Origin: Octopus vulgaris
Taxonomy: Eukaryota
Length of the DNA: 64,000 bases
Direction of reading: 5' to 3'
NCBI GenBank assembly: GCA_951406725.2
Contig: OX597838.1
Coordinates: 8,928,001 to 8,992,000 of the forward strand
This document shows positions 40,501 through 63,522 of this stretch, piece after piece (the stretch's first letter is position 1; each line of letters begins with the position of its first letter). Position numbers: made by a program.

Positions 40501-43500
40501 ATTAATAATGATTCTTTCTACTAAAGGAAGAAGACCTGAAATTTTGAGGGGACGGAGTGCTCAATCGTTACTTATTTTATTGTCTCTGAAAGGCAAAGTT
40601 GAGTTTGGTAGAATTGATGCGGAACGTAAAGCCGGAAGAAATTCCATCGAACATTTTGTCTGGTGTACTAATGAGCTTACTAGTGAGCTTACCATGGCTG
40701 ATCGCACTACCAGTGCCTGTTCTGGTACTGTTATTCTATATATTTTTGGCAGGGAGATGAATCGCTGCTATCTCTAGTGGTCGAGTGTCCATCACTGATG
40801 AGATCAAGGAAGGTAAAAATCATGTGATTTGGTGGTCTTGGCATTGGACGTGGTGGGGATTTATCTCCCCTACTTGCACCAAAAAGGCCAATATCAGAGT
40901 TTCTCTCATGGCATCTGCTGCAGTATGGTTTGTTCTAACACAACATTCACGATTGAGGCAGGACAAAACTTTACAATGATGTTTTGCAACATCCTAGTAT
41001 GATGCATTCTTGGCCAGTTAATGGTTTAACATTCCTGCTTCCAAAAAATTATAGACCCATTACCTGCTTAACAACAATGTATAAAACGCTAAAATCTGTC
41101 CTGACGGAATATGCCTATAGTTTTTTAATAGACAGCAGCATATTCCCTAATGAACAGAAAGGATGTAAACGTGGATCCTATGGTTGTAAAGATCAGCTAC
41201 TCATCAATAAGATGATCCTAGAAGATTGTCACAAACGACACAAAAACTTGTCAATAGCCTGGATAGACTATAAAAAGGCTTTTGATAGTCTACCACATAG
41301 CTGGATTAAGAAACGTCTGGAAATGTATAAAATAGCACCTACTCTGTGAAACTTTTTGTCTGTAAGTATGAGATCATGGAGAACCACAGTGACAATGAAT
41401 CTCTAAATGCTAGAGATGTAAAAATTTCATGTGGAATTTTCCAGAGTGACTCACTATCACCACTCCTCTTTTGTCTAGCCTTAATACCTCTCTCAAAATT
41501 GCTCAATGATGCACAGTACGGATATAAAATGTTTGATAAAAATATAAATCATCTCATTTACATGGATGATTTAAAGCTCTTTGCAAAAAATGACCAACAA
41601 CTCAAGGGCTTACTAACGATTGTTAAATAATTCAGTGATGACATCAAGATGCAATTTGGCCTTGATAAATGTGCAAAAGCTACCTTTGTCAAAGGAAAAA
41701 TTCAATAAACATTCAATTTCTTTCAGAAGCTATGGAGAAGTACAGTTCACCTGGCTGCAAATTGGTAAACCATTCTATTTACAGATGGCAGCATATCACC
41801 AGTCATTATGTACTGAATTCAAATCCCACCAAGGTAGACTTTGCCTTTCATTGTTTCGGAGTTGATAAAATAAGTACCAGTTGCATACTGGGGCTGTAGA
41901 AAGGATTATTATTACTGTTATGACTAAGGCAATAAGCTGGCAGAATCATTAGTGCATTGGACAAAATGCTTAGCAGCATATTTCTGGGTCTTTACGCTCT
42001 GAGTTCAAATACTACCAAGGTCATCTTTAACTTTCATCCTCCTGGGGTCAATGTAATTAACTTGACCCCCTCCCAATTGCTAGCATTGTGCCATTAATTT
42101 TAAATAATTGTTATTTAGTGAAGGTGTGTGGTCTAGTGCTTCAGGTGGTGAACTCACAATCTAGTGATTGCAGGTTCAATTCTTTGGATGAGTGGCGTGC
42201 TGTGTTCTTGAGCAAAACACTTTGTCTCACGTCGTTCCAGTCTACTTGGCTGTAAAAGGGTTAACCCTGTGATGGACTAGCCTTCTGATCGGGGGAAGTT
42301 AGTCTGGTCACCTAACCCAGCGGAGTGGCATCACTCAAAAGCTAAAACAATGCAAAGTGTATTGTGACCAGCGATATGAGAAGAATATTCTTGTGTATGA
42401 TGAATGAGTGAGACTTTGGCATTGAGGAGAAGACCCATCAGGCCAAGAAAAATCGCAGTTATGGCAGATTCCGGGATCATACAAATGGCATCCGTGCCAG
42501 TGGAACGTAAAAGCACCCATTACACTCTCAGAGTGGTTGGCATTAGGAAGTGCATCTGGCCACGGAAAACCATGCCAAATCAGACTGGAGTCTGGTGCAG
42601 CCTTCCAGCGTGTCAGCCCTGGTCAAACCATCCAACACATGCAAGCACGGACAACAGACATTAAATGATGATGATGCTATATAACAATACCACAGTTTGG
42701 CTGAGTGGTTAAGAAGATAGCTTTGCAATGATGCAAGATTTGGGTTCAGTCCCACTGGACGGTACCTCGGGCAAGTGTCTTCTGCTTTAGCTCTAGGCTG
42801 ACTAATGGCTTGTGAGTGAATTTGGTAGATAGAAACTGTGTGGAAGCCTGTTGTGTGCGTGTATGTGCTTGTCTACTGTTTGACAACCGATGTTGGTTTG
42901 TTTACTTCCCCATAGTTTAGCCGTTCAATAGAACAAGTACCAGACTTTAAAAATATAAAAAAATAAATGGCGTCATTCTTGTTCAACTGGACCAGTCAGG
43001 AGTAAACTGCAGCCCATGGCACTTTCTGAATGGCACATCTAATTTCACCAGGAAAATAGTATTTATTAAAATTTTCCAGTAGTGCGATCCACATGATGAT
43101 GAGACACATCTCATGTGGCCTGCTTGCCTGCTTCTTGAAAAAAAAAAAAAAGGTCGTCTGTTCCTGAACTAGATCCTTCAAAGTGGTACACCAGCCTGGC
43201 CACAGTCCAGTGATTGAAACAAGTATCGCATAAAAGAAGACGAAGATGTAAGGGGTTGTCCTGTTCAGCGCCAAATTTGTATCTCACCGTCCAGACTGCA
43301 GCATGCCAGGGTACTGGGCAAAACCGGATGGTATGCAACATCCATTGTCACAGAGAATCCAGTCTCAAGACTCTGCAACATTAAACCATTATAGAAGTGG
43401 TAAGTATAAACCTTACCATCTGAACTGCCACTACTTACATATCGACCATCAAAGGATATGTCAAAACCAATCTTGTAGCCCAGCAACTGCAAAAGAAAGA

Positions 43501-43695
43501 GGAAAAAATTCTATAAGGCGCAGGAGTGGCTGTGTGGTAAGTAGCTTGCTAACCAGCCACATGGTTCCGGGTTCGGTCCCACTGCGTGGCATCTTGGGCA
43601 AGTGTCTTCTGCTATAGCCTCGGGCCGACCAAAGCCTTGTGAGTGGATTTGGTAGACGGAAACTGAAAGAAGCCTGTTGTATATATGTGTGTGTG

Positions 43696-43728
<33 letters not shown>

Positions 43729-60433: not shown

Positions 60434-63074
60434 TAATAATAATGTTAATGATAATAATAATAATAACAATAATAATAATAATAATGTTAATGATGATAAT
60501 AAATAATTTTCAAATACTTCAAATGCCTTTTATGACTTATTTGCTGCGTAAACTGTTTCAAGCTGAAATTTTGACTTGGTGATATATGGTTGTCTCAAGT
60601 GTTTTACCTGTGTTAAGTTTTATAAAGTCTCTGTTGTTGGTGTTTATAGATGGAGATGTGGATGTGTGGGTAAGAAGCTGGCTTTCCAACCATTCAGTCC
60701 TTGGTTCAGTCCCACTGTTTGGTGGTCGAGTATTTTCTATTATGGCCTTGGGTTGACCAAAACCTTGTGAGTGGATTTGGTAGACAGTAACTTAAAGAAG
60801 TCTCATTTATAAATATATATATTTCTTTACTACCCACAAGCGGCTAAACACAGAGTGGACAAACAAGGACAGACAAGCAGATTAAGTCAATTATATGCAT
60901 GTGTGTGTGTATATATATATATAAAACCCTTTTCAAAATGTGACCACGTGTGTACCATTGGCAATTTTATTTTCCTCTGTCTTCCCTTCTCTGGATCTTT
61001 CCTCCTATGTTTCCGACGAAGAGCTCCGCTTGAAACATTAAACCCTCGCTCTTTCCTTCTTTCCTGAGCGTCCAATAATACTATATTTGTTCCATGTCCT
61101 CGCGTTGTTGTGTTTTTTTGTGCTTTCTTGTTTGGATTAACTATATATTTATGTGTGTGTGTATGTTTTTATGTTGAGTTATAAAAAAACTATTTCCCAT
61201 TAAATTGAAGGGTTATTCTATACTTTTAGTAGGGTACATATTATTCTTTAACAAGAATTGCGTTGACAGTGACTTCGAAGTTTCAGCCTGCATCCAGTGT
61301 CCATGTCTTGCTGCCATGCAGCATTACACTTCAAACCCAAGTATCATACAACTGACTCTTCATCCAGTGAGCAAATCCTTTTGTTGTCAGTCAAGATTAG
61401 CCAAAGATTAATCCTGAATAGAGAAATAAACTGCATAGGTTTAACCCTTTAGTTGTTAAACCAGCCATACCTGGCCAATATATTCCACCTGTTTTGTGTT
61501 CCTACTGGTTGCCTTTGAGACTTTCTCTATGCTGATAACCTTGTTCTTATAGCTGAATCACTGCCAGAACTAGAGAAGAAATTTCAGGTGTGGAAGCAAG
61601 GCCTGGAACCAAAGAATTAATTTAGCAAAGACCAAAGTCCTAGTTAGCAGGAGAACAGACATCTTAGAAATCTCTTCAGGGAGATGGTCTTGCTCAACCT
61701 GTAGACAAGCATTGGTAGAAATTTGGGTTAATGTTTTTTTCACGTGCCAGTAAGGCAACGCTGGTAATGTACACACTCGAAATATATATATATATATATA
61801 AATGTCGCACTTCTTTTGGTTTCTGTTTTAAATTCATTCACAAGGCTTTGGTTGGCCCAAGGCTATAGTAGAAGACACTTGATCAAGGTGCCATGCGGTG
61901 GGACTGAACCTGGAACCATGTGGTTGGGAAGCAAACTTCTTATCATGCCTTTTGTACTTAGCCTACAATGTCATTCTAAAAATAAACAATCACATCATTG
62001 AAATCTGAAAGCTATGAGATTAATGCATGATTAATTCAAAAGAATATGATTAAATAAGGATTACATTTGACAGAATAATCTGAATGCTAAAGGGTTGAAT
62101 CTTAACCGTCTTTTTTACTTTTATTTATATTTTTTTTTAATCAGCGAGATTTGGCTGCAGTCCTCTTGACCAAAACCTCCTTGATCGCATGGAAAAGATT
62201 ATTGGTCAGCCTCTACATCATTTCCTGAGAAGAGGTATCTTTTTTGCACACAGGTAAACTTATTTCTTCTCTCTCTCTCCCCTCTCCCCCCTCTCTCTCT
62301 CTCTTCCAGGACCTATTTTGCAAATGCATCTTACTTCCATTGCAAAACTGTACATAAAGCAATTGCTGTTAAGCTTATTAAGCAAATCATAAAGCTGTTA
62401 GTTTTGTCACATAAATTACAGACATAAGAGCAGCAGTGTTTATTTTTCATACTAAAGGTTATTATGGAGTATACCCAAAAGCTTTAGCCATTCTTGCATT
62501 CATAAATTAAATAAATTTGCTAGATACATTTGTCATGAAGAAAAAATCGGCAAGTCTGAGAGAAGGACATTGCAGGATAAGACAGAATAAGATGGCTGAG
62601 GTTACTCGTGACATGCAGTCTGTTTTTGCTGTTTCGAAGTTGAGTATTATATATAAATTTATATATACATAGGTGCAGGAGTGGCTTTGTGGTAAATAGC
62701 TTGCTAACCAATCACATGATTCCGGGTTCAGTCCCACTGTGTGGCATCTTGGGCAAGTGTCTTCTACTATAACCTCGGGCCGACCAATGCCTTGTGAGTG
62801 GATTTGGTAGACGGAAACTGAAAGAAGCCCGTCGTATATTTGTATATATATATATATGTGTGTGTGTGTGTTTGTGTGTCTGTGTTTGTCCCCCTAGCAT
62901 TGCTTGACAACCGATGCTGGTGTGTTTATGTCCCCGTTACTTAGCGGTTCGGCAAAAGAGACCGATAGAATAAGTACTGGGCTTACAAAAGAATAAGTCC
63001 CGGGGTCGATTTGCTCGATTAAAAGGCAGTGCTCCAGCATGGCCGCAGTCAAATGACTGAAACAAGTAAAAGAG

Positions 63075-63111
<37 letters not shown>

Positions 63112-63522
63112 TATTATCTTGCATTATTGATTTCTTTGTCTAATTTGTTTCAGGGAATTGAATGTTATTTTAGACTTGTACGAGAAAGGCACACCTTTTT
63201 ACCTATACACAGGACGGGGCCCATCTTCAATGGCCATGCATGTGGGTCACTTGATTCCATTCATTATAACCAAGTAAGTGGTCAGTTTCTGTTTTTCACT
63301 CTGTTTAACTTGACTTTTCATTGGTCTGGAGTTGATGAGATAAAATAACCTGTGTTAATTAATTTGATGCAGCCTTTTTTTTTTCATATTTGAGGCCATG
63401 TGACTACCTTAAGAATCATCATCGCCATCATCATTATTATCATCATCATCATCATCATTATTATTATCATTATTATTATTATTATTATTATTATCATTAT
63501 TATTATTATCATTATTATTATC

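What the first reader, a model, noticed from the sequence alone, without database searches (positions are those of the whole stretch)
43265..63273. WDR25 and WARS are head-to-head, as in human
Seen: WDR25 on - (ATG 51294) and WARS on + (ATG 56113), divergent, ~4.8 kb apart, with no gene visible between them. Known from memory: human WARS1 and WDR25 form a head-to-head pair on 14q32. Inference: a gene pair retained since the bilaterian ancestor in a lineage noted for heavy genome rearrangement, suggesting shared regulation.
Basis: partly seen in the sequence, partly recalled or inferred. Interest (0 to 1): 0.7.

Follow-up and report, generated by a model that had tools for sequence, protein, structure and literature searches.

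The report
Octopus WDR25 and tryptophanyl-tRNA synthetase, head-to-head
Two ordinary housekeeping genes of the common octopus, the WDR25 orthologue and the cytoplasmic tryptophanyl-tRNA synthetase, point away from each other 4.8 kb apart; the same two genes are neighbours in human and mouse, so this is probably one more surviving piece of ancient gene order.

Summary
The window is Octopus vulgaris. On the minus strand lies a five-exon WD40 gene, with ATG at 51294 and stop at 43265. On the plus strand lie the first three coding exons of cytoplasmic TrpRS, from ATG 56113 to the exon end at 63273; the rest is beyond the window. The two ATGs are 4,818 bp apart. I found no protein domain, Rfam family or tRNA between them.

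Orthology is well supported. The locus's own database protein scores 201 bits against human WDR25, against 91-114 bits for PRP17. None of the 62 relatives carries a PRP17 name. The family tree follows the species tree.

WARS and WDR25 are listed side by side in human and mouse papers. Their head-to-head orientation there is only recalled.

"Retained since the bilaterian ancestor" is likely but barely tested. Both genes share one scaffold in Argonauta, but sit on different scaffolds in the annelid Dimorphilus.

Shared regulation is untested, and 4.8 kb is wider than a classic bidirectional promoter.

This is an ordinary member of a known class, conserved divergent microsyntenic pairs. Interest is low to moderate.

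The parts
50397..51294 (-). WDR25 orthologue, coding exon 1. ATG at 51294. It encodes an acidic, low-complexity N-terminal region and the first WD40 blades. The donor is GTGAGT, phase 1.
   Evidence: The 299-aa translation is exact in P0001. Pfam WD40 scores 35.7 bits against a cut-off of 27; 100% identity to the O. vulgaris WDR25-like record.
49138..49307 (-). WDR25 coding exon 2
   Evidence: Exact in P0001 from residue 301.
46265..46402 (-). WDR25 coding exon 3
   Evidence: Exact in P0001 from residue 357.
45506..45646 (-). WDR25 coding exon 4
   Evidence: Exact in P0001 from residue 403.
43265..43486 (-). WDR25 last coding exon (last WD40 blade), with the TGA stop at 43267-43265
   Evidence: Pfam WD40 scores 28.7 bits against a cut-off of 27. 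The full exon is colinear with O. sinensis P0002 and Argonauta P0003. P0001 uses only its first 22-23 residues.
51295..56112 (.). Spacer between the two start codons, 4,818 bp and AT-rich. It must hold both promoters, and probably a 5' UTR exon of WDR25.
   Evidence: No coding, Rfam or tRNA signal. 1,457 of 4,818 bp are repeated elsewhere in the window. There is no CpG island-like peak.
51303..51320 (-). Acceptor-like site: a pyrimidine tract followed by CAG, 8 nt upstream of the WDR25 ATG. With a donor-like AG|GT at 51645|51644, it suggests an untranslated first exon further upstream. This is inference only.
   Evidence: Read from the sequence. No transcript evidence is available.
55589..55913 (+). 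Tandem repeat, 80 bp x 4.1 copies at 97% match. It ends 200 bp upstream of the WARS ATG. Each unit carries CCGGAA-type cores.
   Evidence: 4 of the 13 CCGGAAR matches in the window lie here.
56113..56251 (+). WARS (cytoplasmic TrpRS) coding exon 1. ATG at 56113. No WHEP domain.
   Evidence: human TrpRS residues 76-104, E 2e-5. Exact in P0085 residues 1-46.
62145..62253 (+). WARS coding exon 2
   Evidence: All 17 PDB matches are TrpRS, best E 1.1e-9. Exact in P0085 from residue 48.
63154..63273 (+). WARS coding exon 3, holding the class I HVGH signature. The gene continues beyond the window.
   Evidence: All 18 PDB matches are TrpRS, best E 8.8e-17. Exact in P0085 from residue 84.

Best explanation
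The window holds the single-copy Octopus vulgaris orthologue of WDR25 and the 5' third of the cytoplasmic tryptophanyl-tRNA synthetase gene (WARS1-type). WDR25 is the sister paralogue of the splicing factor PRP17/CDC40 and is proposed in the literature to be a minor-spliceosome protein. The two genes are transcribed away from each other, with start codons 4.8 kb apart.

The same two orthologues are neighbours in human and mouse. The most likely reading is therefore inherited adjacency: a divergent pair already linked in the last common ancestor of protostomes and deuterostomes, which has survived in octopods.

The most likely reason for survival is that both 5' ends draw on one compact promoter or regulatory interval, so a breakpoint there would damage at least one essential gene.

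Shown: the gene models, the orthology and the arrangement in octopus.
From the literature: the gene order in human and mouse.
Inferred: the ancestral status of the linkage (about 0.8) and a regulatory constraint as its cause (about 0.5).
For: Gene models and identity.

Orthology of the WD gene:
- All 18 named hits out of 23 are WDR25.
- None of the 62 hits at E<=1e-20 carries a PRP17/CDC40 name.
- P0001 scores 201.3 bits (E 2e-58) against human WDR25 (PDB 9xu3_W). The best Prp17 scores 113.5 bits and human PRP17 91.3 bits.
- In the tree of 37 named WDR25 records, the octopus row sits inside molluscs (SH-aLRT 96), inside lophotrochozoans (99), apart from vertebrates (100), with plants and a fungus as outgroup.

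Linkage elsewhere:
- Human list '...SLC25A29, c14orf68, WARS, WDR25, BEGAIN' (PMC3985205 passage).
- Mouse table order Slc25a29, Wars, Wdr25, Dlk1 (PMC10097420 passages).
- In Argonauta hians, WDR25 (P0003) and WARS (P0087) both report a longest contig of 18,297,673 bp.

Class background:
- 54.8% of conserved ancient microsyntenic pairs are 5'-5' in human, against 26.7% of controls (PMC3514665 passages).
- Conserved metazoan microsyntenies are co-expressed in cephalopods (PMC9023564 passage).

Inference, not a call: a given gene pair adjacent in human would be adjacent in octopus by chance at roughly 1 in 10,000. That is far below the share of truly retained pairs.
Against: - In the annelid Dimorphilus gyrociliatus the two genes are on different scaffolds. 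WDR25 is DgyrCDS7327 on a contig of 2,686,630 bp; WARS is DgyrCDS12190 on a contig of 3,787,408 bp. The linkage is therefore not universal.
- Only 3 species (O. vulgaris, A. hians, D. gyrociliatus) appeared in both protein lists. No bivalve, gastropod, amphioxus or cnidarian was tested.
- Sharing a scaffold in Argonauta is not adjacency.
- The orientation in human is recalled, not checked.
- The ATG-to-ATG distance of 4.8 kb is too wide for a classic bidirectional promoter unless 5' UTR exons close the gap.
- About 30% of the spacer is repeat insertions, which shows that it tolerates insertions.
- There is no CpG-island-like feature.
- The other flank is not conserved. Downstream of WDR25 lie about 19 kb of LINE-type retroelements and an IRF gene, not BEGAIN.
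Confidence: 0.55

Rival explanations
1. Inherited adjacency kept by neutral luck. The pair is ancestral, but nothing selects for it. A short intergenic interval is simply a small target for breakpoints, and a few per cent of ancestral adjacencies survive in any two lineages.
For: The spacer has accepted repeat insertions (1,457 of 4,818 bp) and a young 80-bp tandem array (97% match). The linkage is broken in Dimorphilus. Only 12.5% of conserved 5'-5' pairs have spacers under 1 kb in human (PMC3514665 passage).
Against: Retention in both a vertebrate and a coleoid lineage is rare under neutrality. Conserved pairs as a class are enriched for divergent orientation and co-expression.
Confidence: 0.3
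2. Independent (convergent or chance) adjacency. The two genes came to lie side by side separately in vertebrates and in octopods.
For: Coleoid genomes gained many new microsyntenies; 71% of the single-copy genes in the 232 novel cephalopod blocks lie on different chromosomes in scallop (PMC9023564 passage). The one non-cephalopod invertebrate that could be checked, Dimorphilus, lacks the linkage.
Against: The prior chance for one named pair is about 1e-4 (inference). Matching divergent orientation, if the recalled human orientation is right, lowers it further.
Confidence: 0.1
3. Wrong orthology or an artefact. The WD40 gene would be PRP17/CDC40 or another WD40 paralogue, or the juxtaposition would be a misassembly.
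For: Pfam alone cannot tell WD40 families apart. The public models of this gene differ from each other: P0001 has an alternative last exon, and P0002 has an odd stretch at the e1/e2 junction.
Against: WDR25 outscores PRP17 by about 90-110 bits. Hit names and the tree agree. The window has no N. Both database proteins report the same 45,560,751-bp contig.
Confidence: 0.03

Closest known systems
Conserved ancient microsyntenic pairs (CAMPs) of Irimia et al. 2012, e.g. HSPE1-HSPD1
   Same: Two unrelated, broadly needed genes in 5'-5' orientation that are neighbours in both a vertebrate and a protostome. Divergent orientation is the majority state of that class (PMC3514665, passages).
   Different: I could not see whether WARS-WDR25 is on their list, because the supplements were closed. 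HSPE1-HSPD1 has a spacer under 1 kb and a proven bidirectional promoter. Here the start codons are 4.8 kb apart, and neither promoter nor co-expression data exist.
Human and mouse WARS1-WDR25 neighbourhood at 14q32.2 / chr12, at the edge of the DLK1-DIO3 domain
   Same: The same two orthologues are direct neighbours. In mouse brain both show the same weak paternal bias, under control of the IG-DMR (PMC10097420 and PMC10754522 passages).
   Different: The flanks differ: octopus has retroelements and an IRF gene where mammals have BEGAIN and DLK1. Octopus TrpRS is 411 aa with only the tRNA-synt_1b domain listed, so it has no WHEP extension. The orientation in human is recalled, not verified here.
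Classic bidirectional promoter pairs (TSSs no more than 1 kb apart)
   Same: Divergent transcription of two housekeeping-type genes with no gene between them.
   Different: The TSSs are unknown. The ATGs are 4,818 bp apart, the spacer is 30% repeats, and it has no CpG island.

Membership tests
WDR25 orthologue group (sister paralogue of CDC40/PRP17) | C-terminal WD40 beta-propeller | tested here: met
   Pfam WD40 is above its cut-off in exon 1 (35.7 bits) and exon 5 (28.7 bits) against a cut-off of 27. Exon 2 gives only sub-threshold propeller matches, and exons 3 and 4 give none. P0001 aligns over residues 192-473 with residues 217-495 of human WDR25. The number of blades was not counted.
WDR25 orthologue group (sister paralogue of CDC40/PRP17) | Closer to WDR25 than to CDC40/PRP17 | tested here: met
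   201.3 bits against 9xu3_W (WDR25), 113.5 bits against 8xi2_W (Prp17), 91.3 bits against 5mqf_E (human PRP17). Exon 1 alone scores 61.2, 54.9 and 39.5 bits. No PRP17 name appears among the 23 and 62 hits.
WDR25 orthologue group (sister paralogue of CDC40/PRP17) | One-to-one descent: the gene tree follows the species tree | tested here: met
   with 37 named rows that I chose. Molluscs 96, lophotrochozoans 99 and vertebrates 100 (SH-aLRT). No CDC40 outgroup was available, because such proteins score below the best 150.
WDR25 orthologue group (sister paralogue of CDC40/PRP17) | Role in the minor spliceosome | not testable with these tools
   This role was proposed from phylogenetic profile only (PMC9887622 and PMC11874965 passages). 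The taxa I saw (animals, plants, Gigaspora; no nematode or arthropod listed) fit that profile loosely.
Eukaryotic cytoplasmic tryptophanyl-tRNA synthetase (WARS1 type) | Best matches are cytoplasmic or eukaryote-type TrpRS, colinear with the start of the catalytic core | tested here: met
   Exons 1-3 match human TrpRS residues 76-104, 105-141 and 139-181. All 6, 17 and 18 PDB matches are TrpRS. P0085 is named 'tryptophan--tRNA ligase, cytoplasmic-like'.
Eukaryotic cytoplasmic tryptophanyl-tRNA synthetase (WARS1 type) | Class I signature motifs (HIGH-type and KMSKS-type) | tested here: inconclusive
   The HVGH motif is in exon 3. The second motif lies beyond the window. A KMSAS stretch is visible in the database protein P0085. 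That these are the class I signatures is recalled.
Eukaryotic cytoplasmic tryptophanyl-tRNA synthetase (WARS1 type) | Vertebrate-style N-terminal WHEP domain (a feature of the vertebrate enzyme, not of the family) | tested here: not met
   No WHEP match in exon 1. P0085 is 411 aa with only PF00579 listed. The human alignment starts at residue 76.
Bidirectional-promoter gene pair | Opposite strands, 5' ends facing, no gene between | tested here: met
Bidirectional-promoter gene pair | TSSs no more than about 1 kb apart; co-expression | not testable with these tools
   No transcript data are available. The ATGs are 4,818 bp apart. An acceptor-like site 8 nt before the WDR25 ATG hints at an upstream UTR exon.
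Conserved ancient (bilaterian) microsyntenic pair | Orthologues adjacent in distant phyla | tested here: met
   Octopus: this window. Human and mouse: consecutive in published gene lists. Orientation in mammals is recalled only.
Conserved ancient (bilaterian) microsyntenic pair | Linkage present in intermediate lineages | tested here: inconclusive
   Argonauta: same 18.3-Mb scaffold. Dimorphilus: different scaffolds.

The most novel reading that the evidence does not exclude
WARS-WDR25 would be a very old divergent regulatory unit, bilaterian or older, since both genes also exist in plants and fungi. It would couple a tRNA synthetase to a putative minor-spliceosome factor. The octopus spacer would hold a shared control region, marked by a TATCGAT motif at both 5' ends and an 80-bp tandem array rich in CCGGAA cores just upstream of WARS.
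Probability: 0.1. Interest if true: 0.45.

Novelty: new member of a known kind. Interest (0 to 1): 0.25.

Why it matters
If a proper survey confirms it, the pair adds one clean, easily scored example of a divergent housekeeping pair kept between vertebrates and a heavily reshuffled coleoid genome. It would also offer a small 4.8-kb interval in which to look for what holds such pairs together.

It would not change current views. Hundreds of such pairs are described (PMC3514665), and cephalopods are already known to keep about as many ancient blocks as a scallop (PMC9023564).

A side benefit is a corrected gene model for O. vulgaris WDR25. The conserved last exon at 43486-43265 should replace the distant terminal exon of the public record.

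Tried and rejected
1. Pfam on single exons. It was too weak to name either gene: WARS exon 3 scored 13.2 bits against a cut-off of 21.1, and WD exons 3 and 4 gave nothing. I replaced it with PDB and database searches.

2. Literature on the pair.
- WDR25+WARS+synteny: 0 papers.
- WDR25+WARS1+promoter: 0 papers.
- WDR25+WARS: 10 papers, none on evolution or on a shared promoter.
- The mixed searches added only imprinting and clinical papers.

Whether the pair is already listed there stays open.

4. Accession numbers and contig data through the listing of cluster members, meant to judge adjacency in Argonauta, O. sinensis and Dimorphilus. The database was switched off.

5. Representative search, meant to obtain CDC40 outgroups. 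The best 150 are WDR25-like proteins or long multi-repeat WD40 proteins, with the lowest score at 133.9 bits, so no outgroup was obtained.

6. Looking for a hidden gene or RNA in the spacer: nothing found.

7. CpG observed/expected scan for a promoter island: no clear peak.

8. Extended synteny. The WDR25 3' flank is retroelements plus an IRF gene, so there is no BEGAIN-like neighbour.

No locus-level comparison with other animals was possible.

10. I built no joined (spliced) protein of my own. Whole-length comparisons used the database's own records P0001 and P0085.

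
Full report
**What is there**

The window has no N and is AT-rich, with 40% G+C overall. It comes from Octopus vulgaris. Exon 1 of the WD gene is 100% identical to the NCBI record 'repeat-containing 25-like [Octopus vulgaris]' (P0001) and 96% identical to the O. sinensis WDR25-like record.

On the minus strand I read five coding exons with canonical GT..AG borders and matching phases:
- e1 51294-50397
- e2 49307-49138
- e3 46402-46265
- e4 45646-45506
- e5 43486-43265, with TGA at 43267-43265

On the plus strand I read three coding exons of a tryptophanyl-tRNA synthetase:
- e1 56113-56251
- e2 62145-62253
- e3 63154-63273

Each exon was searched or mapped on its own, and whole-length comparisons used the database's own records.
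- Exons 1-4 of the WD gene are contained letter for letter in P0001.
- The three WARS exons are contained letter for letter in P0085, 'tryptophan--tRNA ligase, cytoplasmic-like [Octopus vulgaris]', 411 aa, at residues 1, 48 and 84 onward.

The window therefore holds only about the first 123 of 411 residues of WARS.

The start codons are 4,818 bp apart.

**Nothing else between the genes**

- Of 56 ORFs of at least 45 aa in the spacer, 0 reach a Pfam cut-off, and 2 give sub-threshold matches of no meaning.
- Rfam finds nothing in 43000-64000.
- ARAGORN finds no tRNA in the window.
- 1,457 of the 4,818 bp recur elsewhere in the window, so they are interspersed repeats.
- An 80-bp unit is repeated 4.1 times, at 97% match, at 55589-55913. 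The array ends 200 bp before the WARS ATG.
- There is no CpG-island-like peak.

**Identity of the WD gene**

Pfam shows only generic WD40. The more specific evidence is as follows.
- Exon 1 alone finds 23 proteins at E<=1e-5. The 18 that carry a name are all WDR25 or WDR25-like.
- The WD40 part of P0001 finds 62 proteins at E<=1e-20. They come from cephalopods, bivalves, gastropods, Lingula, two annelids, Saccoglossus, a sea cucumber, vertebrates, several plants and the fungus Gigaspora. None carries a PRP17/CDC40 name.
- Against all PDB chains, P0001 scores 201.3 bits (E 2e-58) with human WDR25 (9xu3_W). The best Prp17 scores 113.5 bits and human PRP17 91.3 bits. Exon 1 alone gives the same order: 61.2, 54.9 and 39.5 bits.
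- I built a maximum-likelihood tree of 37 named WDR25 records, chosen by me. Unnamed rows, isoforms and several further vertebrate, Haliotis and Mytilus rows were left out. The octopus row groups with O. sinensis and Argonauta (100), inside molluscs (96), inside lophotrochozoans (99), apart from vertebrates (100), with plants and the fungus as outgroup.
- No CDC40 outgroup could be included, because such proteins fall below the best 150 of the representative search.

The literature calls WDR25 the sister paralogue of CDC40. It predicts a minor-spliceosome role from the gene's phylogenetic profile (PMC9887622 and PMC11874965, passages).

I take the orthology as established, at about 0.95.

**Identity of WARS**

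- The three exons match human cytoplasmic TrpRS at residues 76-104, 105-141 and 139-181.
- Every PDB match is a TrpRS: 6 of 6, 17 of 17 and 18 of 18.
- Exon 3 finds 2,423 proteins at E<=1e-5, of which the best 120 were listed. They include the O. vulgaris and Argonauta cytoplasmic-like TrpRS.
- The octopus enzyme has no WHEP extension.

**Is the linkage old?**

Human and mouse papers list the genes consecutively:
- '...SLC25A29, c14orf68, WARS, WDR25, BEGAIN' (PMC3985205, passage).
- The mouse table runs Evl, Slc25a29, Wars, Wdr25, Dlk1 (PMC10097420, passages).

No call verified it.

The tools hold no animal genome context, so the proposed survey could not be run. The only proxy was the 'longest contig' column of the protein searches, for species that appeared in both lists. 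There were three such species.
- O. vulgaris: both genes report 45,560,751 bp. This is trivial, as both are in this window.
- Argonauta hians: both genes report 18,297,673 bp. They share a scaffold, but adjacency is not shown.
- The annelid Dimorphilus gyrociliatus: 2,686,630 bp against 3,787,408 bp, with CDS numbers 7327 and 12190. The genes are unlinked.

Accession look-ups that might have sharpened this were unavailable.

By inference, chance adjacency of one named pair in a second genome is of the order of 1 in 10,000. Truly retained pairs number in the hundreds. I therefore rate inherited linkage at about 0.8. It remains an inference from two clades with one counter-example.

**Is it shared regulation?**

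This is untested. The points that bear on it are these.
- A pyrimidine tract plus CAG lies 8 nt before the WDR25 ATG, and a donor-like AG|GT lies at 51645|51644. Together they suggest a non-coding first exon, which would move the WDR25 TSS to about 51.7 kb or beyond. That still leaves roughly 4 kb to WARS, unless WARS also has an upstream exon.
- The spacer tolerates repeat insertions.
- Class-level data favour regulatory constraint for divergent conserved pairs. 54.8% of them are 5'-5' in human, and only 12.5% of those have spacers under 1 kb (PMC3514665, passages). Conserved blocks are co-expressed in cephalopods (PMC9023564, passage).
- The same paper weakens the 'surprising in a scrambled genome' argument. 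A squid keeps 275 ancient blocks against 216 in a scallop.

**Comparison and novelty**

This is a member of the known class of conserved divergent microsyntenic pairs. I found no paper that describes this particular pair's conservation. The supplementary pair lists where it might already appear could not be opened. Both genes are already annotated in public octopus records.

**Verdict**

Novelty: a new member of a known kind. Interest is low to moderate.

Noticed in passing
window 6766-7074 (+) and 8307-8552 (+): Two exons encode the two halves of an interferon-regulatory-factor (IRF) DNA-binding domain. Pfam IRF matches profile positions 1-57 (E 1.8e-19) and 54-104 (E 2.7e-10). This is the next recognisable host gene on the 3' side of WDR25, on the opposite strand, so the two are convergent.
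   Followed up: partly
window about 22900-41700, mostly + strand: A run of LINE-type retroelement ORFs, with reverse transcriptase and endonuclease/exonuclease/phosphatase domains. Examples: 26839-27828, 30399-32147, 35443-36381, 37040-38560. It fills most of the space between the IRF gene and WDR25.
   Followed up: partly
window 21141-21191 (-): The public O. vulgaris WDR25 model (P0001) leaves exon 5 early and ends in a 19-residue tail. That tail is encoded about 22 kb away, just outside the retroelement field, and the model loses the last WD40 blade. The O. sinensis and Argonauta proteins use the full exon 43486-43265. This is probably an annotation error or a minor isoform. The O. sinensis model (P0002) in turn carries an unmatched stretch at the exon 1/2 junction.
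   Followed up: partly
window 55589-55913 (+): An 80-bp tandem repeat, 4.1 copies at 97% match, ending 200 bp upstream of the WARS ATG. Each unit holds CCGGAA/TTCC cores, and 4 of the window's 13 CCGGAAR matches lie here. No other copy is in the window. Whether it acts as a promoter element is unknown.
   Followed up: partly
window 51293-51299 (-) and 56016-56022 (+): The motif TATCGAT occurs 4 times in the window, against 6.0 +/- 2.8 expected. Two of the four sit at the two 5' ends: one overlaps the WDR25 ATG and one lies 91 nt before the WARS ATG. I chose the motif after seeing the sequence, so this is only a lead. Its likeness to the insect DRE element is recalled.
   Followed up: no
window 59980-60530 and 63363-64000: Long A+T-rich simple repeats inside WARS introns 1 and 3. 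They read as runs of I, Y, N or L in every frame.
   Followed up: no
window e.g. 15133-15456, 17672-18400, 19056-19706, 38771-39112 (-), 47480-48095, 48778-49125, 49787-50005 (-), 59143-59556: One interspersed repeat family recurs in WDR25 introns, in WARS intron 1 and in the upstream region. Its ORFs begin [22 protein letters not shown].... I did not classify it.
   Followed up: no
related proteins: WDR25-like proteins turn up in land plants and in the fungus Gigaspora, but no arthropod or nematode was among the 62 listed hits. This fits the published idea that WDR25 tracks the minor spliceosome. Absence from a word-seeded hit list is weak evidence.
   Followed up: no
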